Positions 6,356 to 22,101 of a stretch of 45,700 nt of DNA are shown here, in pieces. The notes under the pieces are model-generated. The model was not told the DNA's origin. It saw nothing but the letters and a program-made list of their open reading frames with translations, and did not search any database. This DNA comes from a virus (lineage: Duplodnaviria; Heunggongvirae; Uroviricota; Caudoviricetes). Both the position numbers and the translations under genes were made by a program. How positions within the stretch are numbered: position 1 is the stretch's first letter; every line of letters starts with the position of its first letter. Location of the stretch: positions 1 through 45,700 of the IMG/VR virus record IMGVR_UViG_2563366840_000010. One strand, 5' to 3'.

Positions 6356-6859
6356 TTATGAATTCCTGGCAAATGAACCATGATTCGCTTTGCGGAAGTC
6401 GCGTATTGCTTCCGCAGCCTTTTCTAATTCAATAAAAGTTCCTACCGTGAATCTTTTGCCATTAACTCGGCACATGGCTGTCCAGCGTTGTTTCCCTTTG
6501 TGCCAATAAACTCCTTTCACTCCGCTCGTATTATTTTTCTGAAGCGGTTTATTGAAGTTATTCTGTGAGCAAGTAGCCTCGCGGAGATTCTCCAGCCTGT
6601 TGTCAGAGCAATTTCCATTCACATGGTCAATCTGGTCTTCAGGCCATTTTCCGTGTGTATAAAGCCAGGCCAAGCGGTGTGCTCTGTATTTCTTTCCATC
6701 GATGATGATTCGTACATAGCCGCGCGTATCTAAATTTCCAGCAAAATCACCTGCGGTTATCCGTCCGCGATTTTTGAGCCATGTGAATGCTCCTGTTTCA
6801 GGCGAGTAGCTGAGCAATTCCTTCAGTCGTGCCAGTGATAATTTTTCTCGCATATTCAT
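6356..6859 (-). CDS. HNH endonuclease with AP2-like DNA-binding domain (~167 aa from internal ATG; ORF extends to 6913)
   Basis: HNH motif region DHVNGNCSDNRLENLREATCSQNN plus GVKGVYWHKGKQRWTA..EKAAEAI AP2-type segment. Confidence 0.8.
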   Translation of the reverse strand: MNMREKLSLARLKELLSYSPETGAFTWLKNRGRITAGDFAGNLDTRGYVRIIIDGKKYRAHRLAWLYTHGKWPEDQIDHVNGNCSDNRLENLREATCSQNNFNKPLQKNNTSGVKGVYWHKGKQRWTAMCRVNGKRFTVGTFIELEKAAEAIRDFRKANHGSFARNS

Positions 6860-6864
6860 CACCG

Positions 6865-7026
6865 TTAGCCTTCGTGAGCCATCTGGTCGTGCGAAGCGCA
6901 ACGTTTGGAGCAATACTCTTTTTCTTTGCGCGCCAGCTGTGAGCCGTTGCGATAGAGAAGGGTGCTCTTGATTACTTCCTCCGTTTTAACCGGCTTGCCG
7001 CAATATCCGCATTTCTTGTCTAACAT
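6865..7026 (-). CDS. small zinc-ribbon protein (53 aa, CxxC...CxxxC)
   Basis: Unlisted short ORF MLDKKCGYCGKPV...CSKRCASHDQMAHEG; GGAGG 7 nt upstream of the ATG; fits between two co-oriented genes. Confidence 0.5.
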   Translation of the reverse strand: MLDKKCGYCGKPVKTEEVIKSTLLYRNGSQLARKEKEYCSKRCASHDQMAHEG

Positions 7027-7832: not shown

Positions 7833-9236
7833 TTATTGACGATTAAAGTAGTTAGAGTTTAGCTCTTTAGGGAAGTAGTGTTTACGATTTACCCAAACAA
7901 ATCCATCAACTTTTGATATCACAGCGACATCAACAGGCCCACCGACAGTTTCATAATCATGTGATACTTTTCTTTTGAATGCAGTGATGTTCACTAATGA
8001 TTCGGCCATATACGCAAGATCTGCCTTCCCAAGTGATTGCAACATCGATATCATTTTATTTGTATGGTTATTAACAATATAGCTTTCAAGTTTAGTATCG
8101 TGATCTTGTAAAAGTACGTTTTTGAGTTCCTCAATTTCACTGGAGAAGTGATTGGCTAGTACTCCATTGTTCATTGCAGGGAAAATATTGCTAGAAACAT
8201 AATGATTAAGCCGATCAAAAACTTCCTCTGTAAGAGTTCTGTTAAAATTAATGATGTTAGGGTTGCACCCATCAATGAAAGTTACTACTTCATCTTCTTG
8301 AGCAAATGGTATAACAAACCCCATATTGGTTACCTCATTATGGGATTTATCATCAATATTATGGATCATCAATTTGTTTTTAAAAATGCCGTAGATATGA
8401 AGAGTGCAAATGGAAGGGTAATATTCTTCCTCTCCATAACCTGTTATAACAATCCCTGAATATGTACGACTAGCATGGACTTTGAAAATTAAACAAGTGG
8501 AATATAATATGACTTTTTCCATAAGCTCTTGCTGTATATTTTCACAGTTATCAAGAACAATAATTGATGAAATGTATGGCGATATTAAATCTTGTATATA
8601 TGCTAAAGCATCATTAAACTCTTCTGTATCAAACCCTTCGAAAAAGAGATTATTCCTTAAGATTCCTATCTCTAAATCAAAGGCTTGCTTAACTATGTTT
8701 TGAAAAATAACATTGTCGAGTTCAACGGCGGGGTTCATTGTTAAATAGTTTACTACATTATTATCATTAATGTATCTCATCAAACCTTTGAGGTTATCAA
8801 CAACAAGGTTTATAACGCAAGCCTCTCTCATTTCATTTGTTATAAGGTCTGAGTTACCATTGATGAATTTTACAAAGTCATTAACATATTCTTTAATGGT
8901 AGGGAAACTAGTTTTCCCCAATTGTTTTCTATAGGATTTAATTATAAGTTCCCACGGTGCGCCACCCAGTGTCGCATTATTATAAATCATGATCCCCACG
9001 GGATGGTGTTTAGATAGTTCGAATAGTTTTTCCGCACTATTATTTATTTTTACTAATCTATTATGCTCTGTGGTGACTGCAGAGTCAGCAGCAAGGGCGA
9101 TTCCAGTATTATTTATTACAACAATCTCAGCTGTCATTGCAAAACATCCCGTGTAGTAGTGATAAATATTAATTAAATTGATAGTTTTTTTCAATCTAAC
9201 ATAAATGGCGGAATCACCCCCCAGTAAAGACATCAT
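7833..9236 (-). CDS. AT-rich accessory (moron) protein with proteasome-beta/HslV-like motifs; likely true start at 9137 (434 aa)
   Basis: Long ORF co-oriented with and 43 bp downstream of the repressor gene; visibly AT-rich; internal start gives MTAEIVVINNTGIALAADSAVTT; C-terminal VGGPVDVAVISKVDGFVWV. Confidence 0.7.
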   Translation of the reverse strand: MMSLLGGDSAIYVRLKKTINLINIYHYYTGCFAMTAEIVVINNTGIALAADSAVTTEHNRLVKINNSAEKLFELSKHHPVGIMIYNNATLGGAPWELIIKSYRKQLGKTSFPTIKEYVNDFVKFINGNSDLITNEMREACVINLVVDNLKGLMRYINDNNVVNYLTMNPAVELDNVIFQNIVKQAFDLEIGILRNNLFFEGFDTEEFNDALAYIQDLISPYISSIIVLDNCENIQQELMEKVILYSTCLIFKVHASRTYSGIVITGYGEEEYYPSICTLHIYGIFKNKLMIHNIDDKSHNEVTNMGFVIPFAQEDEVVTFIDGCNPNIINFNRTLTEEVFDRLNHYVSSNIFPAMNNGVLANHFSSEIEELKNVLLQDHDTKLESYIVNNHTNKMISMLQSLGKADLAYMAESLVNITAFKRKVSHDYETVGGPVDVAVISKVDGFVWVNRKHYFPKELNSNYFNRQ

Positions 9237-9278: not shown

Positions 9279-9662
9279 TCAGTCCCCCTGCGAGCGAATC
9301 CGCCCCTTCATGTACTTCTCGTACAGCTCATCTAACTCTTTCAGGCGAAGCGCAAAAATGCGGAGCATGTTCTGCTGCTCTTCTTCCGGTAACTGGCGGT
9401 AGAGCTCGAGCAAACGCTGTTCGTCCGGTTTGAGACCGTCTTTCTCTCCAACGTCTTCACCGAGTAGCCAGGCGACAGAAATACCAACAGCGTCGGCTAT
9501 GGCCAGTGCCGATTTCTTACTAATCACGCCTTTTTTGAACCAGCCGTTTACGGCCTGAGGGGTGACTCCAGCTATTCTTGCCATGTCTGCTTTGGTAACG
9601 CCGCGATCAGTGATCTCAGTAAGGCGCTCCACCAGAACGAGGTTGGGTTCTTCTTTTCTCAT
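9279..9662 (-). CDS. CI-like prophage repressor, HTH-XRE type, no peptidase domain (127 aa)
   Basis: HTH segment KADMARIAGVTPQAVNGWFKKG; divergent from cro-like gene; the listed 217-aa ORF is an upstream extension without RBS. Confidence 0.8.
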   Translation of the reverse strand: MRKEEPNLVLVERLTEITDRGVTKADMARIAGVTPQAVNGWFKKGVISKKSALAIADAVGISVAWLLGEDVGEKDGLKPDEQRLLELYRQLPEEEQQNMLRIFALRLKELDELYEKYMKGRIRSQGD

Positions 9663-9670
9663 ATGGTCAT

Positions 9671-9736
9671 TGTAAATATTTGGTTTATGCACGCAATAAA
9701 TCCAAAGTTTGCATGAAGTATAAATCTGTGGTTTAC
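9671..9736. promoter_or_regulatory. oR-like operator region: TGTAAATatttgGTTTATG (9671..9689) and TATAAATctgtgGTTTAC (9719..9736) plus divergent promoters
   Basis: Repeated sites matching the oL copies; candidate pR TTGCAT-17-TTTACT upstream of cro. Confidence 0.5.
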
Positions 9737-9764
9737 TTCTGCTATCAATAAGCAGGAGAAGCAC

Positions 9765-9983
9765 ATGTCCGCACTCGATAAAGCAATTAAAGCCGCTGGC
9801 TCTGCCAGAAAGCTCAGCATCGCGCTTGGTGTGACGAGTATGTCTGTAAGTCATTGGAAGAATCGTGACCAAGGGATCGTCCCGCCAAGCTATATCTTCC
9901 CGATTTTCAAAATGACAGGCGTAACCCCCCACGAGCTGCGCCCTGATCTCTATCCAAATCCCACTGACGGATTACCAAAGTAG
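9765..9983 (+). CDS. Cro-like / YdaS-family HTH regulator (72 aa)
   Basis: AGGAGAAG RBS; small HTH protein divergent from the repressor. Confidence 0.8.
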   Translation: MSALDKAIKAAGSARKLSIALGVTSMSVSHWKNRDQGIVPPSYIFPIFKMTGVTPHELRPDLYPNPTDGLPK

Positions 9984-9994
9984 GAGCACTGACA

Positions 9995-10552
9995 ATGCAA
10001 ACACTTTCTTTTCAACAGAATAACAGAGCGCCATCAGAGCACCTGAAATTCCAGTATCAACACAGTGAGGCTGAAGGCCAGCCGGTCGATCACCGGGCTA
10101 TCTGTTCTGCCGTCCGCGCCTGGGCGGCGGCAGAGGGCCGCGTGGCGGTCGCTCTGGCGATTAAAGAGGCTGCCGAACAGGCCGAGCTTGACAGCATTGA
10201 CATGACCGGCAGCGCCGATGTGTGGAACGTGAAGCTGTTTCGCTGGCTGGACAACCACGAGAAATCACCGGCCTACCGGGCGAACGTCGAGCAGCTGGCG
10301 CCGGTAATAATTTCGGTTCTGCCGCTGGCGTACCGGGATCGCGTGATTAAGCACGACTGCTTTGCGGTTCGTGTCGCCAGGTCGGTGAAAGAAGACGCTG
10401 AGGCGATACAGGCTGTCGTCCTCAAAGCCCCCAGACACGAACGGATGAAGGAAATCAGCGAGAGCATCGTAGCCAAGCTCTACCTGGACGGACCTGATTC
10501 TGTGGCGCCCATTATGGCGATGGTTACAACGATGCTGGGTGGTGCGCTATGA
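9995..10552 (+). CDS. YdaT-like / CII-position regulatory protein (185 aa)
   Basis: Follows the cro-like gene with AGGAG RBS; segment FRWLDNHEKSP..LAPVIISVLPLAYRDRV resembles Rac YdaT from memory. Confidence 0.6.
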   Translation: MQTLSFQQNNRAPSEHLKFQYQHSEAEGQPVDHRAICSAVRAWAAAEGRVAVALAIKEAAEQAELDSIDMTGSADVWNVKLFRWLDNHEKSPAYRANVEQLAPVIISVLPLAYRDRVIKHDCFAVRVARSVKEDAEAIQAVVLKAPRHERMKEISESIVAKLYLDGPDSVAPIMAMVTTMLGGAL

Positions 10553-11545: not shown

Positions 11546-12231
11546 AATCTCTTGCAGAGCAGATGCGTAACCACGACCGCGAGCAGATGAGCCGCATGGC
11601 CCATAACCTGCCAGAGCAGTACCAGGAGTGCGCGCCGGTCGAGCAGGTGGCGCAGGTATTCAACAAGCTGTTCAACGAGCTGCGCGCCGCGTTCCCGGCC
11701 AGCATGGCGAACTTCCGCACCCAGGAAGACCTGAACGAATTCCGCCGTCAGTGGCTGCTGGCGTTTCAGGAGAACGGGATCCACACCATGGCTCAGGTCG
11801 ATGCCGGCATGCGCATTGCCCGCCGCCAGGAGCGCCCATTCCTGCCGTCGCCGGGCCAGTTCGTCGCCTGGTGCAAGCAGAGCGGCGGCGCGCTGGGCGT
11901 CAACGTTGACCAGGTGATCGCCGAATACTGGGACTGGCGTAACCGCTCGTTCGAATTCATCTCCAGCGAGCAATTTCCATGGTCGCAGCCGGTCATGTAC
12001 CACATTTGCGTAGAATTGCGCCACCGCAGCACCGAGCGCCAGTTAACGCATGGTGAACTGGCACGCGAGGCAGGCGATCTGCTGGACATGTGGGAAAGGC
12101 GCGTCACCGAGGGTAAGCCAGTGCCGCCGGTACGCCGGGCTATTGCCGCACCAGCTGCCGAGCAAGGGCCGACGCCGATCCAGCTGCTGCTGGCCAAGTA
12201 CAACCGCAACAAGTCGAACGGGATGGTGTGA
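11542..12231 (+). CDS. P: replication protein P-like helicase loader (229 aa)
   Basis: Start overlaps O stop; position and size as lambda P. Confidence 0.7.
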   Translation: MKSLAEQMRNHDREQMSRMAHNLPEQYQECAPVEQVAQVFNKLFNELRAAFPASMANFRTQEDLNEFRRQWLLAFQENGIHTMAQVDAGMRIARRQERPFLPSPGQFVAWCKQSGGALGVNVDQVIAEYWDWRNRSFEFISSEQFPWSQPVMYHICVELRHRSTERQLTHGELAREAGDLLDMWERRVTEGKPVPPVRRAIAAPAAEQGPTPIQLLLAKYNRNKSNGMV

Positions 12232-13078: not shown

Positions 13079-13106
13079 AACCCGCTACGGCGGGTTTTCT
13101 TTTTTT
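13079..13106 (+). terminator. intrinsic terminator (CCCGC-tacg-GCGGG + T-rich run)
   Basis: Seen directly. Confidence 0.65.
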
Positions 13107-13168
13107 ACTACTGACAGAAAATTAACAATTTGTGCTCTTAAAGCGTTGATCATTTCCGCGCATAGGTA

Positions 13169-13188
13169 TACTGTATAAAAACACAGTA
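13169..13188. promoter_or_regulatory. LexA (SOS) box TACTGTATAAAAACACAGTA
   Basis: Exact CTGT-N8-ACAG with TA flanks, 19 bp upstream of the dinI-like ATG. Confidence 0.8.
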
Positions 13189-13206
13189 AATGCAATGGGG
13201 GCCATT

Positions 13207-13440
13207 ATGAAAGTTGAATTAACCATTGATCGCATGAAAGAACTTCCTAAAGGCGCAGTACCAGCACTGGAGAAAGAACTGCTTAAGCGCCTGAATGATC
13301 ACTATGACAATTGCAGGCTCACAATCCGCCGTGCCGGGGCCGATGGGTTAAGTGTTTTTGGTGGTGACAAGGACGATAAAAAGAAAATTGAATCAATCCT
13401 CCAGGATACCTGGGAAAGCGCTGACGACTGGTTTTATTAG
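13207..13440 (+). CDS. dinI: DinI-like SOS-inducible protein (77 aa)
   Basis: MKVELTIDR...ILQDTWESADDWFY closely parallels E. coli DinI including the WESADDWF C-terminus. Confidence 0.85.
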   Translation: MKVELTIDRMKELPKGAVPALEKELLKRLNDHYDNCRLTIRRAGADGLSVFGGDKDDKKKIESILQDTWESADDWFY

Positions 13441-13557
13441 AATTGCGCTTAAGGCTGGCGCGCATTTTTCAGAATACCGCAATTTGCGTAACCCTCTGAT
13501 GCTGCTGCCGACAATCTTTAATCGCGTCTGTTAGTCGCTCGAAGGGAGAACATAAAT

Positions 13558-13806
13558 GTGAGTGATTCAGCTTTGCAAACGTCAGAAGACAACTGGTATG
13601 ACATTGTAAGAAGGTCTGACGGCTGCGTGGTGTTTAGCTTTCCTTCATCGGGCAGGCATCTAATTTATCGCGTCAATGGCATGGTTTCTATGCGGCCTTT
13701 GCTGGATGATGAAGAGGTCTTTACTCCTAATGGTTTTATGCAGTTTATTCACCGTCTCGGCTACCGGGTAACCCCACCTTCTGATAATATGAAATCAACG
13801 GTCTGA
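13558..13806 (+). CDS. hypothetical protein (82 aa, GTG start); candidate LexA-controlled antirepressor
   Basis: GAAGGGAGAA RBS; directly downstream of dinI in the same unit. Confidence 0.45.
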   Translation: MSDSALQTSEDNWYDIVRRSDGCVVFSFPSSGRHLIYRVNGMVSMRPLLDDEEVFTPNGFMQFIHRLGYRVTPPSDNMKSTV

Positions 13807-13840
13807 ACAACCGTAACCTACTGCGCCACGGAGAGAAACC

Positions 13841-14440
13841 ATGGCGCACGAACTACAACTCATCAAGCATTCCTCAGGAATCCTGATCCCCGCTACGCCG
13901 GAGACCAGTGATTTACTGCAATCAAAAATCAAACTCGGCTCCGTACTGGTGGCTGAGTTCCGGCAGGTACGCAACCCGGCCTTTCACCGTCGTTTCTTCG
14001 CGTTACTCAATCTCGGTTTCGAATACTGGGAACCCACCGGCGGGGCAATCTCCTCCAACGAACGCAAGCTGGTAACCGGCTATGCCAAGTTCCTTGCCTC
14101 ATTCGCGGGAAGTGAAGCAGCACTCCTGGATGCTGCTGAGCAATATCTGGACCGCATCGCCGATAAGCGCGCCGGTAGTATCAGCATCTGCAAATCCTAT
14201 GACGCATATCGTGCATGGGTGATCATCGAGTCTGGCCACTACGACGCCATACAGCTTCCCGACGGCACCCTTCGCAAACACCCCCGCAGCATTGCCTTTG
14301 CCAACATGGACGAAACCGAGTTCCAGCAGCTGTACAAAGCCGCGCTCGATGTTCTGTGGCGCTGGGTATTGTCCCGGGCATTCAAGGACCAGCGTGAAGC
14401 GGAAAACGCCGCATCGCAGCTCATGAGCTTTGCGGGGTGA
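13841..14440 (+). CDS. conserved phage protein of unknown function, nin-region (199 aa)
   Basis: Clean ORF with plausible start. Confidence 0.6.
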   Translation: MAHELQLIKHSSGILIPATPETSDLLQSKIKLGSVLVAEFRQVRNPAFHRRFFALLNLGFEYWEPTGGAISSNERKLVTGYAKFLASFAGSEAALLDAAEQYLDRIADKRAGSISICKSYDAYRAWVIIESGHYDAIQLPDGTLRKHPRSIAFANMDETEFQQLYKAALDVLWRWVLSRAFKDQREAENAASQLMSFAG

Positions 14441-14646
14441 TGGCGATGAAATATTCCTGGTTCCACCATCACGAATGCACAACCGATCAGGCCGACGAGC
14501 TGGTGGCCAGTTACCGTCGTCGTGGCGCCACGGTAGAACGTAGCCTGAATCGCGACAACATCACCTGGACTATCAGCGCAAAATTGCCTGAATGCGAGCA
14601 TCCGGCGCGTACACCAAGAACCTTTCGACAAAAGGTCTGGGGGTGA
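14437..14646 (+). CDS. hypothetical small protein (69 aa)
   Basis: Start overlaps upstream stop; ends just before the ninG start. Confidence 0.4.
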   Translation: MMAMKYSWFHHHECTTDQADELVASYRRRGATVERSLNRDNITWTISAKLPECEHPARTPRTFRQKVWG

Positions 14647-14648
14647 TT

Positions 14649-15260
14649 ATGGCTAAGTTACCGCGCCGGAAGTGCGCCAACAAGGAATGCCGCCAGTGGT
14701 TCAATCCAGTACGCGACACGCAGACCGTCTGCGGTTATGAGTGCGCCAGCGCCGTCGGGAAAGAGCAGACCAGAAAAGCCCGGGAGGCTGCACAACGCAA
14801 AGAGTCTGCCAAGCAGCGCGCCACTGAGAAGAAAGAACGTGCAGCCTGGCGCCAGCGTAAAGCTGCAGTTAAGCCGCTGAAGCACTGGATTGACCTGACT
14901 CAGCGTGCCTTCAACGACTGGCGGCGTGAAATGCTGCTGGCCGCCGGGCACGGCTGTATCTCCTGCGGAACCAAGACTGCGTTTGCCTGGCATGCCGGGC
15001 ATTACCGGACCACGGCAGCCGCACCACAGCTTCGCTTTAACCTGGACAATATCTGGCTTCAGTGCTCCGCCTGCAACGTCCACAAATCCGGAAACATCGA
15101 GGCGTACCGAGCCGCGCTGGTGGAACGTTATGGCGAAGAGCTGGTACTAGCGCTCGAGAACAATAACGCTCCGCATCGTTGGACTATTGAAGAACTGAAG
15201 GAAATCAGACTGACCGCGCTGGCTGACCTGCGCGCGCTGAAAAAGCAGGAGGCAGCATGA
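14649..15260 (+). CDS. ninG: NinG/Rap-like recombination protein (203 aa)
   Basis: Cys-rich motifs (CANKEC, CGYEC, CISCG, CSACN); listed ORF start trimmed to the ATG with GGGGGTG RBS. Confidence 0.75.
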   Translation: MAKLPRRKCANKECRQWFNPVRDTQTVCGYECASAVGKEQTRKAREAAQRKESAKQRATEKKERAAWRQRKAAVKPLKHWIDLTQRAFNDWRREMLLAAGHGCISCGTKTAFAWHAGHYRTTAAAPQLRFNLDNIWLQCSACNVHKSGNIEAYRAALVERYGEELVLALENNNAPHRWTIEELKEIRLTALADLRALKKQEAA

Positions 15261-15397
15261 CATTCGAATCCTATTTTGCCGATCACCTCCGCGTTCGCTG
15301 GCAGCGGCTTCGCTTATACCACTTTCCCGGCTCTGTGCTAACGGACTACCGGATACTGAAGAATTACGTGAAAACTTATGCTGGAGAAGCGCTATGA
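15257..15397 (+). CDS. small protein (46 aa) translationally coupled between ninG and Q
   Basis: ATG overlaps the ninG stop; stop overlaps the Q ATG. Confidence 0.35.
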   Translation: MTFESYFADHLRVRWQRLRLYHFPGSVLTDYRILKNYVKTYAGEAL

Positions 15398-16176
15398 ACC
15401 TTGAAAACACAGTGAAATACCACTTCGCTAAATCCACACTGATTAGCGATTCTCCGCGCGCTACCGCCTCCGATTCACTGACCGGTACCGACATAATGGC
15501 TGCCATGGGCATGACGCAGGAACGCGCCGCAATGGGTTACAGCGCCTTCCTCGGCAAGATGGGCATAAGCAATAACGACCGGGATCGGGCGATCGGTCTG
15601 CTGGCTGAGTACGCGATGACAAAATGCGACAAGGTTGCCGCACTGCGTAAGCTCGGTGCCGCGGTTAAACCTCAGGTGATGCACCAGTTGGCCACCTTCG
15701 CTTTTGAGGACTATTCCCGCAGCGCTGCCAGCGTGAAGCAGTGCGATTGTTGTGACGGTCAGGGCTTCATTGAGGCTGACGTGTTTACCAATAAATTCCG
15801 TAAGCCAGAAGGGAGAATGACCGTGTCCGGGATGGTGAAGGTCAAAGAATCCATCAAAGTGCTATGCAAAAAGTGTAATGGCTCTGGTGTGGTTAGTGCT
15901 TCTTGCAGTGATTGCCATGGGCGCGGCAAGGCAGTGAACCAGGCTCTTACTGAGAAACAGGGCGTTCCTGTTCTGGCTGACTGTAAGCGCTGCGGAGGGC
16001 GTGGGTATGAACGACTTCCGTCGACTGAAGCCTATGCTGCTGTATGCCAGATTACTGACGCCATTAGCCTGGACACCTGGAAAAAGTCTGTTAAGCCATT
16101 CTACGACCTGCTGATCACGAAATTTGATATCGAAGAGTCCTGGGCCGAAAAACAGCTTAAGCAGATAACGCGGTAA
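15394..16176 (+). CDS. Q: late antiterminator Q, lambda-Q family (260 aa)
   Basis: SDSPRATASDSLTGTDIMAAMGM matches lambda Q; zinc-finger CxxC pairs; followed by a pR'/qut-like sequence. Confidence 0.85.
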   Translation: MNLENTVKYHFAKSTLISDSPRATASDSLTGTDIMAAMGMTQERAAMGYSAFLGKMGISNNDRDRAIGLLAEYAMTKCDKVAALRKLGAAVKPQVMHQLATFAFEDYSRSAASVKQCDCCDGQGFIEADVFTNKFRKPEGRMTVSGMVKVKESIKVLCKKCNGSGVVSASCSDCHGRGKAVNQALTEKQGVPVLADCKRCGGRGYERLPSTEAYAAVCQITDAISLDTWKKSVKPFYDLLITKFDIEESWAEKQLKQITR

Positions 16177-16224
16177 CGCCTATAGCGATAGCCTATGATT
16201 TTGTCTTGGGCTATTTACTTTTCC

Positions 16225-16300
16225 CGAATCTGTGTTAATTTTGTCCCAACGATGGGTTAATTCGCTCGTTGTGGTAGTGAGATAAAAAGAGGCGGCGCTT
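16225..16300 (+). promoter_or_regulatory. late promoter pR' / qut-like region
   Basis: caacgatgggttaattcgctcgttgtggtagtgagat... appears near-identical to the lambda pR'-qut sequence as I recall it. Confidence 0.5.
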
Positions 16301-16381
16301 ACTACCGATTCCGCCTAGTTGGTCACTTCGACGTATCGTCTGGAACTCCAACCATCGCAGGCTGAGAGGTCTGCAAATGCA

Positions 16382-16441
16382 ATCCCGAAACAGTTCGCAG
16401 GTAATAGTTAGAGCCTGCATAACGGTTTCGGGATTTTTTAT
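16382..16441 (+). terminator. tR'-like terminator (long hairpin atcccgaaac...gtttcgggat + T-run), end of a 6S-like leader
   Basis: Seen directly; matches the lambda tR' region from memory. Confidence 0.75.
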
Positions 16442-16443
16442 TT

Positions 16444-16518
16444 GGGTCAGTCGTATAAAGGTCATTACGGAAGGCTGTTAACCTTCTTATCGTGGTTCGA
16501 GTCCACGCTGTCCCGCCA
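16444..16518 (+). tRNA. tRNA-Asn (anticodon GTT), phage-encoded
   Basis: Hand-folded cloverleaf: acceptor stem with one T-T mismatch, D-loop with GG, anticodon stem GAAGG/CCTTC and loop CTGTTAA, T-arm CGTGG-TTCGAGT-CCACG, discriminator G, CCA. Confidence 0.55.
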
Positions 16519-16554
16519 AACATGCTGGTTTAGCTCCAATGGTAGAGGTGGTAA

Positions 16555-16980
16555 ATGCCGAGCAAAGATTACTATCTTAATCGAAGGGCTAGGCTTGCTA
16601 AGGCCGTGGAAAAGTTGGGTGGTCGTTGCGCGAGTTGCGGATCCGAATATTCGCTTCAGTTTGACCACATAGACCCTTCCACCAAATCAGCAAATGTAAG
16701 CGAGATGCACTATCACTCAGATTCGGTGTTTTATGCTGAGGTTGAAAAGTGCCAACTACTATGTTCTGCATGCCACATTCAGAAAACCAAATTTGACCTT
16801 AGCTACTTAGTAGCTGGTGAGCTGAATGGTATGAGCAAGCTAACAATGGACAGCGTCCAGTTCATCAGAGAAAACTACATTCCACGACATAAGGTTTATG
16901 GAGCCAGAGGGCTAGGGAGAATGTTTGGTGTAACACATCAAACAGTGCTTTCAGCCTTAAATGGCGAAACCTGGAAATAA
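16555..16980 (+). CDS. HNH endonuclease (141 aa)
   Basis: CASCGS...DHIDP...CQLLCSACH HNH motif. Confidence 0.8.
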   Translation: MPSKDYYLNRRARLAKAVEKLGGRCASCGSEYSLQFDHIDPSTKSANVSEMHYHSDSVFYAEVEKCQLLCSACHIQKTKFDLSYLVAGELNGMSKLTMDSVQFIRENYIPRHKVYGARGLGRMFGVTHQTVLSALNGETWK

Positions 16981-17397
16981 GCTGCGCGTCAGAGGTTCGA
17001 TTCCTTTGCCCGCTCCAGTAAAAGCTTTCCAGTCTGCGATGATGGGTTCCCCGGAGTGACTGGAAAGCGACCTGGTTTTGAATGGGCGCTGCTTTTTGCA
17101 AAATTGCTGTGTGAAAATACTGACCTTTGGGTTCAGCGCTCATCCAAAAGCATCACGTGAATTCACCAACGCTCATGTACTCTCCAGGAAACAATAAGTG
17201 ATTCTGAAAAGTTCCGGTTAGATATTGCCCCGGTCACCGGATGATTTTATCTTTTGGTTCGTGGTGAATCCCCCTATGCGGCGGGGCGTCCAGTCAAACT
17301 TTTTTGTCCAGGTTTGTTTGCGCGGAACTAGTCGGCTGGGGCTGTTCCACCGGGAGGCACCCGGCGCCACCTCCTTGACGGTATTGTTATTTTTCAT

Positions 17398-17424
17398 GCC
17401 TGTTCGTCCGAGCAGGCTTTTTTT
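17398..17424 (+). terminator. intrinsic terminator (GCCTG-ttcgtccgag-CAGGC + T7)
   Basis: Seen directly; no convincing plus-strand CDS upstream. Confidence 0.6.
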
Positions 17425-17455
17425 GCCCGCATTATCTTCATTGAAAACTGGCAAC

Positions 17456-17833: not shown

Positions 17834-18112
17834 ATGACCAGAATGAGCACCATTTACAGCAGACTTTCATATGGAACAGGAACCACGCTGACCGGCTGCG
17901 GTGTATCAGCGAAGGCATATGCCGAAACAGCTAAAACAGCAAAAGAGGTGTCCTGGATGTTGGCCGACAGAATTGCAGGGTTAAGCCTGAGCGACTGGGC
18001 AATTATTGTCGGTATCGCATGCACTGTTATTACCTGTGCAGTGAACTGGTATTTCCGCTGGAAAGAACGGGAGGATCGGCGCAATGGCTATGCCACCAAA
18101 GCTGAAGAATAG
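17834..18112 (+). CDS. pinholin, phage-21 S21-like (92 aa)
   Basis: GGAGGTGA RBS; two TMDs; C-terminus [11 protein letters not shown] parallels S21 YFKIREDRRK. Confidence 0.8.
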
Positions 18113-18656
18113 CGTTATTGCAGCGATACCCGCTGGCGCTATTGCTATCGCTGCGGCGTTGATTACTGGCCCAACGGGTAATGATGGCCTTGAAGGTGTA
18201 CGCTATCAGCCTTATCGGGATGTTGTTGGAGTGTGGACTGTATGCTGGGGCCATACTGGTAAAGATATTATCCTCGGCAAGACCTACACCAAAGCAGAGT
18301 GCCAGGCGCTGCTGGATAAAGACCTGAATATTGTCGCCCGACAGATTAACCCATATATCAATGCTCCGATCCCCGAAACGATGAGAGGGGCGCTGTACTC
18401 ATTTGCGTATAACGTAGGCGCGGGAAACTTCAAAACCTCCACACTGTTACGAAAAATCAACCAGGGTGATTCGAAAGGCGCATGCGAACAACTGCGGCGC
18501 TGGATCTATGCTGGTGACAAACAGTGGAAGGGTTTAATCACGAGGCGTGAGATTGAGCGTGAAGTTTGCCTGTGGGCAGAGAAACCTCAGGTTCTGGGGG
18601 ATGGACTCGGGCCGCTTAACCCTGGCATTCCGGTATCAGTTCCGGGGGTATTCTGA
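18084..18656 (+). CDS. SAR endolysin, GH24 lysozyme, R21-like (190 aa)
   Basis: N-terminal signal-anchor [27 protein letters not shown] and lysozyme core close to phage 21 R as recalled. Confidence 0.85.
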
Positions 18657-19192
18657 TGAAACCCAGAAAAATTACGATTGTTGCGGTTCTGCTGGTGGCT
18701 GTCGTAATCATTATTGCAGTGCTTAGCGTATTACTGGTTCGTAGCCGCTCAGCTCTTGAAACAGAACAGAGTGAGAATCGGGTATTACGTAATGATAACG
18801 CGCTGCAGGCGACGGTGATAACTACACAGGCTTTCAACTTCAATCGGTTTAACCAGATAGCAGAGAACGCCAACCGCCTTAACTCGCTGATCGATGCCGG
18901 TACTGAGAAAACTGTCATCGAATACCGGGAGATTCTCCGACGTGAAAAGACCTGTGATCTGCCTGTTCCTGCTGATGTCGCTGGTGGGCTGCTCAAATAC
19001 GCGTACCGTTTACGTGCCAGCGCAATGCACCCCGATACCGGGAACACTAACGCAACCGATGATAGTACCGCTGCCGCCAGCTCAATGACGTATTGCCAGG
19101 CCGTCCTCTGGATTGAACCTTTGCTGGCTGTTATTGAGAAGGGCAACAATAACCTGGCGGGTATACGAGAGATTGAGAAGTTACGAAAATGA
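18656..19192 (+). CDS. i-spanin (Rz-like), N-terminal TMD (178 aa)
   Basis: ATG overlaps the endolysin stop; embedded lipoprotein ORF in +1 frame. Confidence 0.6.
   Translation: MKPRKITIVAVLLVAVVIIIAVLSVLLVRSRSALETEQSENRVLRNDNALQATVITTQAFNFNRFNQIAENANRLNSLIDAGTEKTVIEYREILRREKTCDLPVPADVAGGLLKYAYRLRASAMHPDTGNTNATDDSTAAASSMTYCQAVLWIEPLLAVIEKGNNNLAGIREIEKLRK
18894..19088 (+). CDS. o-spanin (Rz1-like) lipoprotein embedded in Rz; start possibly GTG at 18942
   Basis: Lipobox LVGC, Pro-rich C-terminus. Confidence 0.55.
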   Translation: MPVLRKLSSNTGRFSDVKRPVICLFLLMSLVGCSNTRTVYVPAQCTPIPGTLTQPMIVPLPPAQ

Positions 19193-19454
19193 ATAATGTC
19201 CGTTGACATTGTTAGGGTGATTCTCATTTAACAACCTCAACTGCTACATTACAGTGCTTCATCATGCAATTAGCTTTTTCACCAATGGCTTAGATCCAGT
19301 GAAAGTTACTGACGTTATCTAATGACAAGATGAACGTAGCTTTTGTGTAGTTTTTCAGCGAATAGGATTATCTGAATTTAGCATTTTTGGCTTGTATAAA
19401 CTGTGGGTAAGTAGCTATAGTCACGTCATAGATAGTATTTTTGCATCTTTTTCA

Positions 19455-19480
19455 AGCCTCTTTTGAGGCTTTTTGCACAT
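19455..19480 (+). terminator. hairpin AAGCCTC-tttt-GAGGCTT + TTTTG
   Basis: Seen directly, ~260 bp after Rz. Confidence 0.4.
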
Positions 19481-19562
19481 TTAAATATGACAACAATGGC
19501 ACATATAGTATGTCCCCCTTGGCACAGGCACTATATGTAGCGCTATAAAAGGAGCTATCATT

Positions 19563-19763
19563 ATGACCCCAGCTGAGTTCTACGATGTTTACAATATCAA
19601 ACCGGCAGAAATGTTGACTGGTGAAACTGTTAACAACTTCGCTTCTCGTGTAATGGCACAGCAAACTAGTACGAGTGGAAACACAGGTGTTTGGTACTCA
19701 CAAGGTACCGCTACACAATCGAAGCAAAACCAAACTACAAGTCATCAACTTTACACGTACTGA
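19563..19763 (+). CDS. hypothetical small protein (66 aa), first gene of an AT-rich two-gene cassette
   Basis: AAAGGAG RBS; Q/T/S-rich C-terminus. Confidence 0.6.
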   Translation: MTPAEFYDVYNIKPAEMLTGETVNNFASRVMAQQTSTSGNTGVWYSQGTATQSKQNQTTSHQLYTY

Positions 19764-19766
19764 TTT

Positions 19767-20669
19767 ATGCCTAATTGGAGCGACGTACTGGGCGAGATAA
19801 CGGCTCTCGCCCATAAAAGTCCTATGGATGAGGTTCGCCGTAAATACTTATCTCAACTTTCGAATCATACTGGAAGAAATGTAATCACATATTACTCAGG
19901 GTGGTTACAGCATGGTGGTGCAGAAGTACGCCATCTTACTCAGATGACTGATGATGATAAGAACGGGTTGATGACAGCCATCAATGGTTTAGATGTATCA
20001 AAAGGGTTGGATTTGATACTTCATACTCCAGGTGGTGATATTGCCGCTTTGGAATCAATCGGGCATTACTTAAGGTCGAAGTTTGGAACTAACATCAGAG
20101 CAATTGTTCCTATGATTTCAATGTCCTGCGGAACTATGCTTGCATGTTGTGCCAATGAAATCATCATGGGTAAACAGTCCAACATTGGCCCAATTGATCC
20201 TCAGTTCAACGGTTTCTCCACCCATGCCATCATTGAAGAATGGAATCGTGCGCAGACGGAAATTTTTCAAAATCCCGCAGCTGTTCAGATGTGGCAGTTC
20301 ATTCTTCAAAAGCTAAACCCGACGATCATCGGCGAGTGTGAGAAAGCAATCAAATGGGCAAATGAGATTGTTAAGCATTGGCTTATGACAGGCATGTTTG
20401 ATAATGATCCTGAGGCAGAATCAAAAGCAACACATGTTTGTTCAGAGTTAAACAACCATCACACAACCTATACCCACTCGCGTCATATTCATTTTGATAA
20501 GGCGCAGAAAATTGGGTTGAATGTTACCGAACTTGAAAGTGATCAAGTACTTCAAGATTTGGTTTTGACTATACATCACAGCTACATGCATTCTTTTGGT
20601 GGAGCACCACTGGCAAAAATCATTGAAAATCATAACGGTAACGCAATGATTTGGAATATCCAGTCTTAA
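19767..20669 (+). CDS. ClpP/S49-fold (SDH-type) serine peptidase-like protein (300 aa)
   Basis: LHTPGGDIAALESIGHYL and SMSCGTMLACCANEI segments resemble ClpP/SppA-fold peptidases; start 3 nt after the upstream stop. Confidence 0.65.
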   Translation: MPNWSDVLGEITALAHKSPMDEVRRKYLSQLSNHTGRNVITYYSGWLQHGGAEVRHLTQMTDDDKNGLMTAINGLDVSKGLDLILHTPGGDIAALESIGHYLRSKFGTNIRAIVPMISMSCGTMLACCANEIIMGKQSNIGPIDPQFNGFSTHAIIEEWNRAQTEIFQNPAAVQMWQFILQKLNPTIIGECEKAIKWANEIVKHWLMTGMFDNDPEAESKATHVCSELNNHHTTYTHSRHIHFDKAQKIGLNVTELESDQVLQDLVLTIHHSYMHSFGGAPLAKIIENHNGNAMIWNIQS

Positions 20670-20687
20670 TCCCCCCTGTCTGATTCC

Positions 20688-20716
20688 AGCCTCGCCTATG
20701 CGGGGCTTTTTTATTT
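20688..20716 (+). terminator. intrinsic terminator (AGCCTCGC-ctat-GCGGGGCT + TTTTTTATTT)
   Basis: Seen directly after the cassette. Confidence 0.7.
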
Positions 20717-20790
20717 GCGGTACGCAGCACACAGAACCCACTACCTGGGACCCTTCGGCCAGAGAGCCGACATTGCCTTACCCTCACATT

Positions 20791-20816
20791 GCCAGCCTGT
20801 CGCTGGCTTTTTTATT
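20791..20816 (+). terminator. second intrinsic terminator (GCCAGC-ctgtc-GCTGGC + TTTTTTATTT)
   Basis: Seen directly. Confidence 0.7.
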
Positions 20817-20889
20817 TGCGATGTCCGGTCGTTGTTTCCTGGCATCCTTCCACTCTACACAAACAGCACCCCGTTCCTTCGGAGGTGAT

Positions 20890-21207
20890 ATGGCAAAGCG
20901 TATGAATGACGACCACAAAATTGTAGGCCTGTCCTGGTTAGTCCTGCTCGGCATTGCATGCTGGGGCGGTTTAGTTCGCTACCTGATCGACGTAAAGCAG
21001 AATAAAGCGACATGGAGCTGGATAAACGCGCTGGCACAGATCGCTGTCTCCGGCTTTACCGGTTTGATTGGCGGGTTGATAAGCGTGGAGAGTGGGTTGA
21101 GTTTTCACATGATCCTTGTCACGTCCGGCATTAGCGGGGCGATGGGTTCAGTGGCTCTGACCTATTTCTGGGAACGCTTGACGGGGATGAAGAATGCAAA
21201 CCAGTGA
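20890..21207 (+). CDS. holin, class I, 3 TMD (105 aa), second lysis cassette
   Basis: GGAGGTGA RBS; three hydrophobic segments, charged C-terminus. Confidence 0.7.
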   Translation: MAKRMNDDHKIVGLSWLVLLGIACWGGLVRYLIDVKQNKATWSWINALAQIAVSGFTGLIGGLISVESGLSFHMILVTSGISGAMGSVALTYFWERLTGMKNANQ

Positions 21208-21634
21208 TAAAGGCATTGCCCTGATCAAAGAGTTCGAAGGTTGCAAGCTCACTGCCTATCAGGACAGCGTCGGCGTTTGGACGATCGGTTATGGCTGGAC
21301 TCAGCCCGTCGACGGGAAACCAATCCGTGCCGGGATGACAATTAAGCAGGAAACGGCAGAACGCCTGCTGAAGACAGGAATGGTCAGTTACGAAAGTGAC
21401 GTGTCACGACTGGTTAAAGTTGGCCTGACTCAGGGGCAATTCGATGCCCTGGTGTCGTTCACGTATAACCTCGGTGCGCGGTCATTGTCGACATCGACTC
21501 TCCTGCGAAAACTCAACGCCGGAGATTACGCTGGTGCAGCCGATGAGTTCCTGCGCTGGAATAAAGCTGGTGGGAAGGTGCTGAATGGGCTGACACGTCG
21601 GCGGGAGGCAGAGCGGGCTCTGTTCCTGTCATGA
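21194..21634 (+). CDS. soluble endolysin, GH24 lysozyme (146 aa)
   Basis: EFEGCKLTAYQDSVGVWTIGYG catalytic region typical of T4/P22-type lysozymes. Confidence 0.85.
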   Translation: MQTSDKGIALIKEFEGCKLTAYQDSVGVWTIGYGWTQPVDGKPIRAGMTIKQETAERLLKTGMVSYESDVSRLVKVGLTQGQFDALVSFTYNLGARSLSTSTLLRKLNAGDYAGAADEFLRWNKAGGKVLNGLTRRREAERALFLS

Positions 21635-22101
21635 TTGGCGCGCTGGTTAAGCGTTACTGGCTGCAACTGATTGTGGTGTCGGTAATCGGCGTGCTGGCGT
21701 TCTTCGTTAACCACTACCGCGACAACGCCATCACCTACAAAGACCAGCGCGACAAGGCAATTGAGAATCTCAGCCTTGCGAAAAATACCATCGATGACAT
21801 GAAGGTGCGCCAGCGTGATGTCGCTGCACTGGATGCCAAATACACCGGAGAACTGGCTGATGCGAAAGAAACCATTGAGCGTCTGCATAGCGATGTCATT
21901 GCTGGCCGTAAGCGGCTGCAGCTCAACGCAAACTGTCCCGCGAACGGAACGACCAGCACCGGCGGCCTGGGCGATGTTACCGGCCCCCGACTTACTGACT
22001 CCGCTGAACGGGATTATTTCACCCTCAGAGAGCGAATCGTCACAGTGACGAAACAGGTTGGATATTTGCAGGAATACATCAAAGAGCAGTGCTTAAATTG
22101 A
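21631..22101 (+). CDS. i-spanin Rz (156 aa)
   Basis: N-terminal TMD, coiled-coil-like body, embedded Rz1. Confidence 0.7.
   Translation: MIGALVKRYWLQLIVVSVIGVLAFFVNHYRDNAITYKDQRDKAIENLSLAKNTIDDMKVRQRDVAALDAKYTGELADAKETIERLHSDVIAGRKRLQLNANCPANGTTSTGGLGDVTGPRLTDSAERDYFTLRERIVTVTKQVGYLQEYIKEQCLN
21860..22048 (+). CDS. o-spanin Rz1 lipoprotein (62 aa)
   Basis: Lipobox LLAVSGC; C-terminal TPLNGIISPSE matches lambda Rz1. Confidence 0.7.
   Translation: MRKKPLSVCIAMSLLAVSGCSSTQTVPRTERPAPAAWAMLPAPDLLTPLNGIISPSESESSQ

What the first reader, a model, noticed from the sequence alone, without database searches (positions are those of the whole stretch)
13169..13806. LexA-box-controlled dinI operon with a possible antirepressor, paired with a non-cleavable repressor
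The repressor (9279..9662) lacks a LexA-like peptidase domain, so RecA-stimulated self-cleavage is unlikely. A perfect LexA box sits before a dinI homologue, followed by an 82-aa protein of unknown function. In Gifsy-type Salmonella prophages induction is driven by LexA-controlled small antirepressors, so the 82-aa product is a candidate.
Basis: partly seen in the sequence, partly recalled or inferred. Interest (0 to 1): 0.6.

Follow-up and report, generated by a model that had tools for sequence, protein, structure and literature searches.

The report
SOS-controlled prophage antirepressor operon (Gifsy type)

Summary
TACTGTATAAAAACACAGTA at 13169-13188 is the only zero-mismatch LexA box in the window. 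It overlaps a -10 hexamer (TATACT) and sits 18 nt before a DinI gene (13207-13440). An 82-aa GTG-initiated ORF follows (13558-13806), then a DUF1367/irsA-like gene (13841-14440).

The 82-aa protein is not an orphan. It is 76/82 identical to the protein in Salmonella loci that match all four published cloning primers for gfoA and gfoR (Lemire, Figueroa-Bossi and Bossi 2011, PMC3121763). GfoA is the LexA-controlled Gifsy-1 antirepressor.

The repressor (9279-9662, 127 aa, HTH only, no S24 peptidase) is 60% identical to GfoR and 69% to the GfhR-like repressor. Identity rises to 74-82% in the C-terminal half.

Across fetched loci, 20 of 21 with a GfoA-type antirepressor have this repressor class. 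All 11 GftA-type loci have the GtgR class.

The same operon (99% nt) is in coliphage mEp237 and in 51 of 5,426 complete E. coli genomes, always annotated "hypothetical".

Verdict: interpretation supported by homology and synteny. It is a member of a known, experimentally characterised system, so interest is low. The only unexplained item is a 90-nt dinI-antirepressor spacer that is better conserved than the genes around it.

The parts
13079..13106 (+). Rho-independent terminator-like hairpin (AACCCGCTACGGCGGGTT) plus T-run. It insulates the SOS operon from upstream early-right transcription.
   Evidence: [quoted passage not shown]
13146..13172 (+). Putative PdinI promoter: -35 TTGATC (13146-13151), 15-nt spacer, -10 TATACT (13167-13172).
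   Evidence: Read. The geometry is the same as Salmonella PdinI-gfoA (TTGAAT-15-TATACT). A -10 SNP in that promoter abolishes Gifsy-1 induction in strain D23580 (PMC5322425). The simple 16-18-nt-spacer scan does not call it.
13169..13188 (.). LexA box TACTGTATAAAAACACAGTA, overlapping the -10 hexamer and the likely transcription start.
   Evidence: (0 mismatches, unique in the window). A box is present at the same position in every related locus where this region could be read.
13207..13440 (+). dinI homologue (77 aa), first gene of the operon.
   Evidence: Pfam DinI 3.8e-26; phrog_189; NCBIfam DinI; 66% aa identity to Gifsy-2 DinI; 32% identity to the C-terminal half of phage 186 Tum.
13441..13557 (+). 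dinI-antirepressor spacer. The first 90 nt are highly conserved. It includes a terminator-like hairpin at 13444-13462 followed by CATTTTTC, then the Shine-Dalgarno sequence GAAGGGAGA at 13541-13549.
   Evidence: The first 90 nt are 91% identical to Gifsy-2, against 66% for dinI and 47% for the antirepressor cassette. Hairpin. In the hairpin (13444-13462) the variation among loci is confined to the loop, and substitutions are few across the rest of the spacer. The predicted RNA fold is not unusually stable, z = 0.61. There is no Rfam hit.
13558..13806 (+). gfoA/gfhA-type antirepressor gene (82 aa, GTG start).
   Evidence: 76/82 identical to the GfoA of loci L010/L040. 37 homologous protein clusters, all unnamed. 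phrog_340 at 4.3e-20. Distant link to GftA: hhalign E = 9.7e-5, probability 58%. Purifying selection.
13841..14440 (+). DUF1367 gene, irsA homologue, third gene of the operon.
   Evidence: Pfam DUF1367 2.2e-91. 83% aa identity to Gifsy-2 STM1020. It has the same position as the irsA homologue in the Gifsy operon (PMC3121763).
9279..9662 (-). Prophage repressor of the GfoR/GfhR class (127 aa): N-terminal HTH plus a conserved C-terminal region (LLELYRQLPEEEQQNMLRI..LRLKELDELYEKYM). No S24 peptidase domain.
   Evidence: HTH only; 60% identity to GfoR and 69% to the GfhR-like repressor, with the C-terminal 57 residues at 74% and 82%. 27% identity to GtgR. Weak DicA subfamily hit. 28% identity to DicA.
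9663..9764 (.). Divergent repressor/cro control region with two 15-nt repeats, TAAATATTTGGTTTA (9673-9687) and TAAATCTGTGGTTTA (9721-9735). These are candidate operators.
   Evidence: Their function is inferred only.
9765..10552 (+). cro-like (YdaS family, 9765-9983) and YdaT-like (9995-10552) early-right genes, which the repressor would keep off.
   Evidence: Pfam YdaS_toxin 1.4e-13 and YdaT_toxin 1.5e-17.

Best explanation
The window is an apparently complete lambdoid E. coli prophage running from integrase to tail genes. Its lysogeny switch is of the Gifsy type.

In the lysogen, the 127-aa repressor (9279-9662) holds the early promoters off. Host LexA sits on the box at 13169-13188, which overlaps the -10 of the dinI promoter. 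An upstream terminator (13079-13106) keeps other transcription out.

DNA damage activates RecA and LexA self-cleaves. The operon dinI, 82-aa antirepressor and DUF1367/irsA-like gene is then transcribed. The 82-aa GfoA-type protein accumulates, binds the repressor and takes it off its operators without cleavage. In Gifsy-1 the complex behaves as an A2B2 heterotetramer. Early lytic transcription then starts.

Shown here: the sequence features, the orthology and the co-occurrence of antirepressor type with repressor class. Taken from the literature on the Salmonella orthologues: LexA control, accumulation after mitomycin C, binding and DNA release. Inferred: that the same steps occur with this particular pair, and that the conserved C-terminal half of the repressor is the surface the antirepressor recognises.
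For: - The LexA box is perfect and unique in the window, and it overlaps TATACT.
- The terminator, dinI, GTG-start small ORF and DUF1367 lie in the published Gifsy order, 0.94 kb after replication gene P (PMC3121763).
- The antirepressor is 76/82 identical to the GfoA of loci L010 and L040. Those loci match primers pp866 (annealing part), pp867 (annealing part), le144 and le145.
- The repressor is of the GfoR/GfhR class, with a C-terminal half 74-82% identical, and has no S24 domain.
- Co-occurrence: 20 of 21 loci with a GfoA-type gene and a visible immunity region carry a GfoR/GfhR-class repressor. These cover at least five different N-terminal (immunity) types. All 11 GftA-type loci carry the GtgR class. 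Fisher p = 9e-8, but the loci are not independent.
- Three further E. coli prophages with this operon and other immunity alleles also carry this repressor class.
- Distant homologues (38-67% identity) in Klebsiella, Citrobacter and Salmonella phages still sit directly after a dinI gene, and in the Salmonella and Klebsiella phages also before the gene that occupies the DUF1367 position.
- A -10 SNP in the orthologous Salmonella promoter abolishes Gifsy-1 induction (PMC5322425).
- No Ant, KilA or Bro-type antirepressor was found among the other window genes scanned.
Against: - There is no experiment on this pair.
- The -35/-10 spacer is 15 nt and the generic promoter scan calls nothing.
- The window protein differs from GfoA at 6 residues, and the repressor is only 60-69% identical to the two proven targets, so recognition could in principle be lost.
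- One GfoA-type locus (L041) pairs with a GtgR-like repressor, so pairing is not absolute.
- The structure model of the antirepressor is only moderate (pLDDT 66) and matches nothing solved. No structural support for a binding mode exists.
Confidence: 0.86

Rival explanations
1. The operon is a functional SOS unit, but its antirepressor is not matched to this prophage's own repressor. It would act only in trans on other resident prophages, or on nothing, and this prophage would be induced by some other route.
For: Gifsy antirepressors act in trans and across immunity types, and FsoA of Fels-1 plays no role in inducing its own phage (PMC3121763). The modules are shuffled independently: the operon is 99% identical in mEp237, whose immunity region differs. 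One locus (L041) pairs a GfoA-type gene with a GtgR-like repressor.
Against: The window repressor has the C-terminal region shared by both proven GfoA targets, at 74-82% identity. That class accompanies GfoA-type genes in 20 of 21 loci plus 3 more E. coli prophages. No other antirepressor and no self-cleaving repressor was found in the window.
Confidence: 0.08
2. The 82-aa ORF is not an antirepressor here. It would be an accessory SOS protein working with DinI on RecA, or it would not be expressed because of the GTG start and the terminator-like hairpin in front of it.
For: The hairpin plus T5 at 13444-13462 lies between dinI and the ORF. The start codon is non-canonical. There is no database annotation.
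Against: The characterised orthologues also start at GUG or UUG, lie behind the same conserved spacer, and accumulate after mitomycin C (PMC3121763). The ORF is 93% identical to GfoA and under purifying selection.
Confidence: 0.03
3. The repressor is inactivated by RecA-stimulated self-cleavage as in lambda, and the LexA-controlled operon is incidental.
For: None found beyond the general lambda paradigm.
Against: The protein is 127 aa with only an HTH domain and no Peptidase_S24 hit. The homologous GfoR, GfhR and GtgR are not cleaved during induction (PMC3121763).
Confidence: 0.01

Closest known systems
[quoted passage not shown]
   Same: Same operon order and regulatory layout: terminator, LexA box over the -10, dinI, a conserved spacer, an antirepressor with a non-ATG start, and an irsA/DUF1367 gene. 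The antirepressor is 93% identical. The repressor is of the same class and length, with a near-identical C-terminal half. The operon has the same position relative to the replication genes.
   Different: The host is E. coli. The start codon is GTG rather than TTG. The DinI allele is diverged (66% aa identity to the Gifsy-2 DinI). The repressor's N-terminal DNA-binding part is a different immunity type (49-57% identity). The replication genes are lambda O/P-type rather than O/DnaC-type. Nothing has been tested experimentally for this pair.
GftA with GtgR of Gifsy-2 (same paper)
   Same: Same operon, same conserved dinI-antirepressor spacer (91% nt), same irsA homologue (83% aa), same mechanism.
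   Different: The antirepressor cassette is a different, only remotely related sequence: BLASTP finds nothing and hhalign gives E = 9.7e-5, probability 58%. The repressor class differs (27% identity). GtgR is reported insensitive to GfoA/GfhA.
Tum of coliphage 186 (and AntC of N15)
   Same: A LexA-controlled antirepressor encoded outside the immunity region. The LexA box overlaps the -10. A DinI-like sequence is associated with it: the window DinI is 32% identical to the C-terminal half of Tum.
   Different: In Tum the antirepressor and DinI-like parts are fused, with the antirepressor part first. Here they are two genes with dinI first. The N-terminal half of Tum shows no detectable similarity to the GfoA family (hhalign probability 0.3%). 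AntC was not tested.
Rem with DicA of the Qin cryptic prophage, E. coli K-12 (Ragunathan and Vanderpool 2023, PMC10448788)
   Same: A small antirepressor acting on a short, non-cleavable DicA-type repressor. The window repressor is 28% identical to DicA across the HTH and C-terminal region.
   Different: Rem shows no detectable similarity to the GfoA-family profile. It is not preceded by dinI or a LexA box, and its inducing signal is reported as unknown.

Membership tests
Gifsy-type LexA-controlled dinI-antirepressor-irsA operon | LexA box directly upstream of a dinI homologue, overlapping the promoter | tested here: met
   13169-13188 has 0 mismatches and overlaps TATACT at 13167-13172, 18 nt before the dinI ATG.
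Gifsy-type LexA-controlled dinI-antirepressor-irsA operon | Terminator-like palindrome preceding the LexA box | tested here: met
   13079-13096 plus T-run. The feature is described in PMC3121763.
Gifsy-type LexA-controlled dinI-antirepressor-irsA operon | Gene order dinI, then a small ORF with a non-canonical start, then an irsA homologue, outside the immunity region and downstream of the replication genes | tested here: met
   13207-13440 DinI; 13558-13806 with a GTG start; 13841-14440 DUF1367. Replication P ends at 12231.
GfoA/GfhA antirepressor family | Sequence homology to the experimentally characterised GfoA | tested here: met
   76/82 identical to the ORF in loci L010/L040, which match the published gfoA and gfoR primers. 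The literal GfoA sequence (a figure in the paper) was not available, so the identification rests on the primers and on the paper's description of the start codon (printed 'UGG', read here as a probable misprint for UUG, the TTG found in L010/L040).
GfoA/GfhA antirepressor family | Binds the cognate repressor and releases it from operator DNA. Accumulates after DNA damage. | not testable with these tools
   Shown only for the Salmonella orthologues (PMC3121763).
GfoR/GfhR-class non-cleavable repressors | Short (about 130 aa) HTH protein without an S24 peptidase or cleavage domain, homologous to GfoR/GfhR | tested here: met
   127 aa with HTH_3 only. 60% identity to GfoR and 69% to the GfhR-like repressor.
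GfoR/GfhR-class non-cleavable repressors | Not cleaved during induction | not testable with these tools
   Inferred from the absence of the domain and from the orthologues.
Lambda CI / LexA-type self-cleaving repressors | C-terminal Peptidase_S24 domain with a Ser/Lys dyad and an Ala-Gly cleavage site in a linker | tested here: not met
   No S24 hit at E <= 0.01, and the protein is too short.
Tum (phage 186) antirepressor | Single polypeptide with an N-terminal antirepressor part and a C-terminal DinI-like part | tested here: not met
   There are two separate genes in the reverse order. The GfoA-family profile against Tum gives probability 0.3%. Only the DinI part is similar.

The most novel reading that the evidence does not exclude
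The 90-nt spacer between dinI and the antirepressor gene is kept at about 91% identity across prophages, while dinI (66%) and the antirepressor cassette (47%) diverge or are swapped. It starts with a hairpin plus T5 whose stem is invariant and whose loop varies.

It could be an uncharacterised cis-regulatory element. One option is a partial terminator or attenuator that makes antirepressor output lag behind or stay below DinI output, which would set an SOS threshold for prophage induction. It could at the same time act as the recombination joint through which antirepressor cassettes are exchanged.
Probability: 0.2. Interest if true: 0.35.

Novelty: new member of a known kind. Interest (0 to 1): 0.15.

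Why it matters
Little is new for the field. The mechanism was established in 2011 and has been extended since (Owen 2017; Ragunathan and Vanderpool 2023).

The practical value lies in annotation. The antirepressor has no Pfam or NCBIfam model. It is labelled "hypothetical" in phage mEp237, in the RefSeq records inspected among the 51 complete E. coli genomes that carry it, and in every named one of its 37 protein clusters (the unnamed majority carry no label at all). SOS-inducible prophages of this type are therefore easily misread as having no induction route.

The co-occurrence data point to the repressor's C-terminal half as the specificity determinant. That gives a concrete target for mutagenesis or for a structure of the complex. 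None is solved.

Tried and rejected
- Direct BLASTP of the 82-aa protein against GftA found nothing. This first suggested an unrelated protein. The link came only from the published primer sequences.
- Pfam and NCBIfam have no family for the antirepressor.
- The AlphaFold model was only moderate (pLDDT 66; four strands plus one helix). Foldseek against the PDB gave no hit with E < 1. The profile against PDB sequences gave nothing for either the antirepressor or the repressor.
- hhalign of the GfoA-family profile against Rem and against Tum found no similarity.
- The conserved spacer was tested as an RNA element. The fold z-score is 0.61. Rfam gave no hit beyond a chance isrK match at the upstream terminator, 14.9 bits. 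The spacer frame was only inspected by eye for an ORF. It has too few substitutions to judge, and the idea was not pursued.
- The generic sigma-70 scan found no promoter because of the 15-nt spacer.
- PADLOC gave nothing for the 467-aa gene next to the repressor.
- A literature search for 'mEp237' matched only DOIs of an unrelated journal.

Full report
**1. What is in the sequence**

The window starts with a tyrosine integrase (1-1194). It continues with recT/recE on the minus strand, an immunity region, lambda-type O and P replication genes, a nin-like region with NinG and Q, lysis genes, terminase and tail genes. It is therefore an apparently complete lambdoid prophage. A 5.3-kb stretch covering the immunity region through the SOS operon is 97-99.8% identical to chromosomal prophages of several E. 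coli strains.

The finding's coordinates are correct:
- TACTGTATAAAAACACAGTA at 13169-13188 is the only zero-mismatch match to TACTGT-N8-ACAGTA in 45.7 kb.
- 13207-13440 encodes a 77-aa DinI (Pfam 3.8e-26).
- 13558-13806 is an 82-aa ORF starting at GTG, 9 nt after the GGAG core of the Shine-Dalgarno sequence GAAGGGAGA.
- 13841-14440 is a DUF1367 protein (2.2e-91).
- Upstream, at 13079-13106, there is a GC-rich hairpin followed by a T-run.
- The repressor ORF at 9279-9662 (-) gives a 127-aa protein with only an HTH domain and no S24 peptidase. It is divergent from a YdaS-type cro-like gene (9765-9983) and a YdaT-like gene (9995-10552).

**2. Identification of the 82-aa protein**

Pfam and NCBIfam have no family for it. 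PHROGs places it in phrog_340, of unknown function. A database search found 37 clusters in Salmonella, Citrobacter, Enterobacter, Klebsiella, Lelliottia and E. coli; none that carries a name is called anything but 'hypothetical' or 'uncharacterized'. BLASTP against the Gifsy-2 antirepressor GftA found nothing.

The decisive link came from Lemire, Figueroa-Bossi and Bossi 2011 (PMC3121763). That paper describes the LexA-regulated Gifsy operon as dinI, a small antirepressor gene with a non-canonical start codon, and an irsA homologue. The LexA box is preceded by a terminator-like palindrome and lies downstream of the replication genes.

The paper's cloning primer for gfoA (pp866) anneals with GTAATTCAGCTTTGCAA, which reads S-N-S-A-L-Q. 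The window ORF begins M-S-D-S-A-L-Q. An exact scan of IMG/VR for AGTAATTCAGCTTTGCAA returned 58 loci. Fifty-one of them have TTG as the start codon, which fits the paper's wording (it prints 'UGG', presumably a misprint for UUG), and an 82-aa product.

Two loci, L010 and L040, contain exact matches to four primer sites: the annealing part of the gfoA forward primer, the annealing part of the gfoA reverse primer, and both gfoR primers (le144 and le145). They therefore represent the cloned Gifsy-1 pair. Their antirepressor is MSNSALQKSEDSWYDIVRRSDGCVVFSFPSSGRHLIYRVNGMVSMRPLLDDEEVFTPNGFMHFIRRLGYRVTPPSDNMKSTA, which is 76/82 identical to the window protein.

Between the two genes, 16 codons differ synonymously and 6 non-synonymously, so the ORF is a conserved coding sequence. 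A profile of the family aligns with GftA over 66 columns (hhalign E = 9.7e-5, probability 58%). This fits the paper's statement that the two are "more distantly related".

**3. The repressor**

The GfoR encoded by L010 is 131 aa and starts MKEKTHQIN, as in primer le144. It is 60% identical to the window repressor: 49% over the N-terminal 70 residues and 74% over the C-terminal 57.

The 155-aa ORF type found in many GfoA-carrying loci and in phage mEp237 has an internal in-frame ATG that gives a 127-aa form. This fits the paper's description of GfhR and its longer variant GfhR*. The short form is 69% identical to the window repressor: 57% in the N-terminal part and 82% in the C-terminal part. 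Identity to GtgR is 27%.

The window repressor is thus a new immunity variant of the GfoR/GfhR class. According to the paper, both members of that class are inactivated by GfoA and GfhA even though they recognise different operators.

**4. Co-occurrence test**

I classified the repressor in every fetched locus where the immunity region was within the DNA held.
- Of 21 loci with a GfoA-type antirepressor (including the window and mEp237), 20 have a repressor with the C-terminal signature LLELYRQLP..LRLKELD..Y.KYM. These are spread over at least five distinct N-terminal types. One locus (L041) has a GtgR-like protein.
- All 11 loci with a GftA-type antirepressor have GtgR-class repressors. These include two heteroimmune variants at 46-51% identity that keep the GtgR-type C-terminus.
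- Three more E. coli prophages with this operon and other immunity alleles again have the GfoR/GfhR-class C-terminus.

The loci are not phylogenetically independent, so the Fisher p of 9e-8 overstates the evidence. The pattern across different immunity types is nonetheless clear. It suggests, as an inference, that the conserved C-terminal half is what the antirepressor recognises.

**5. Promoter and LexA control**

In all related loci the LexA box overlaps a hexamer TATACT, with TTGA(A/T)(T/C) 15 nt upstream. The window has TTGATC (13146-13151) and TATACT (13167-13172). The generic scan, which requires a 16-18-nt spacer, calls nothing.

This promoter is functional in Salmonella. Replacing it abolishes mitomycin C induction (PMC3121763). 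A single -10 SNP explains why Gifsy-1 is non-inducible in strain D23580 (PMC5322425). Some IMG/VR loci carry single-base variants of the hexamer. The window has the intact form.

No plus-strand terminator was detected between 13462 and 16637. SOS-driven transcripts might therefore extend into ninG and Q. This is speculation only.

**6. Mechanism**

By orthology, LexA cleavage derepresses the operon. The 82-aa protein accumulates, binds the repressor (A2B2 in Gifsy-1) and removes it from DNA without proteolysis. The process is reversible and acts in trans on co-resident prophages of the same repressor class (PMC3121763). According to the same paper, non-polar dinI and irsA deletions had no measurable effect on induction in Salmonella, so the roles of those two genes remain open.

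The structure model of the antirepressor has four beta-strands and a C-terminal helix, with mean pLDDT 66. It has no significant match to solved structures. No relative of the repressor has a solved structure that the sequence profile can detect.

**7. Comparison with known systems, and novelty**

The module is a member of the Gifsy dinI-antirepressor-irsA family. All sequence-level defining features were tested and met. The biochemical features cannot be tested here.

It resembles phage 186 Tum only in logic and in the DinI part. It resembles Qin Rem/DicA only at the repressor level.

The identical operon (99% nt) is in sequenced coliphage mEp237 and in 51 of 5,426 complete E. coli genomes, always annotated as hypothetical. 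The finding is therefore correct but ordinary. Its value is in annotation, not discovery.

**8. Loose end**

The first 90 nt of the dinI-antirepressor spacer are 91% identical between the window and Gifsy-2. By comparison, dinI is 66% identical, the promoter region 58% and the antirepressor cassette 47%. The spacer begins with a hairpin plus T5 whose stem is invariant and whose loop varies among loci. Its predicted RNA fold is not unusually stable, and Rfam has nothing for it. It may be an attenuator, a recombination joint for cassette exchange, or both. I could not decide between these.

Noticed in passing
window 13441-13530: The spacer between dinI and the antirepressor gene is more conserved (91% nt identity to Gifsy-2) than the genes on either side (dinI 66%, antirepressor cassette 47%). 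It starts with a hairpin plus T5 (13444-13462) whose loop varies while its stem does not. It could be an attenuator or a cassette-exchange joint. The papers read here do not describe it.
   Followed up: partly
window 7833-9236 (-): A 467-aa AT-rich gene lies immediately downstream of the repressor gene, in the position rexAB holds in lambda. It has no Pfam, NCBIfam or PADLOC hit and only phrog_5990 (unknown function). It is a candidate lysogen-expressed moron or defence gene. In Gifsy-1 of strain 14028 the genes in the equivalent slot (STM14_3218-3220) are needed for RtcR activation (PMC9879122).
   Followed up: partly
window 8530-8549: A second LexA-like site, TGCTGTATATTTTCACAGTT, has an intact CTGT-N8-ACAG core and lies inside the coding sequence of the 467-aa gene. 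Two cores in the window against 0.66 expected is compatible with chance (11 of 100 shuffles).
   Followed up: partly
window 9673-9687 and 9721-9735: Two 15-nt repeats, TAAATATTTGGTTTA and TAAATCTGTGGTTTA, lie 48 nt apart in the repressor/cro intergenic region. They are candidate operators.
   Followed up: no
window 13556-13561: ATGTGA, an ATG followed directly by a stop codon, overlaps the GTG start codon of the antirepressor gene. Salmonella versions have AAATTGAGT there instead, with a TTG start.
   Followed up: no
L001 (phage mEp237) 1176-2055 (-); also L008, L022, L037, L048, L053: Several prophages with a GfoA-type operon carry two adjacent paralogous GfoR/GfhR-class HTH genes on the same strand. 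Both have the conserved C-terminal region. The window has only one.
   Followed up: no
window 17236-17428 (+) and 16444-16515 (+): Rfam STnc100 sRNA (71.7 bits), ending in a strong terminator at 17398-17417, and a tRNA gene. Both lie downstream of the Q antiterminator gene (15394-16176).
   Followed up: no
window 18084-22101: The lysis region is split. The lysozyme gene (18084-18656) is separated from a LydA-type holin (20698-21207) and Rz (21631-22101) by an SDH/ClpP-like serine protease gene (19767-20669).
   Followed up: no
window 6356-6913 (-) and 16555-16980 (+): An HNH_3 + AP2-domain endonuclease gene lies in the early-left region, and a weak HNH hit lies after the tRNA. These are possible homing endonucleases.
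   Followed up: no
L041 and L042, L057, L058 (IMG/VR Salmonella loci): These loci carry single-base variants in the TATACT -10 hexamer of PdinI (CATACT, TGTACT, TATGCT). A -10 SNP is known to silence Gifsy-1 in strain D23580. L041 is also the one locus where a GfoA-type gene accompanies a GtgR-like repressor.
   Followed up: no
window 13462-16637 (+): The simple scan found no plus-strand terminator between the dinI spacer hairpin and the region after Q. LexA-controlled transcripts might therefore read into ninG and Q.
   Followed up: partly
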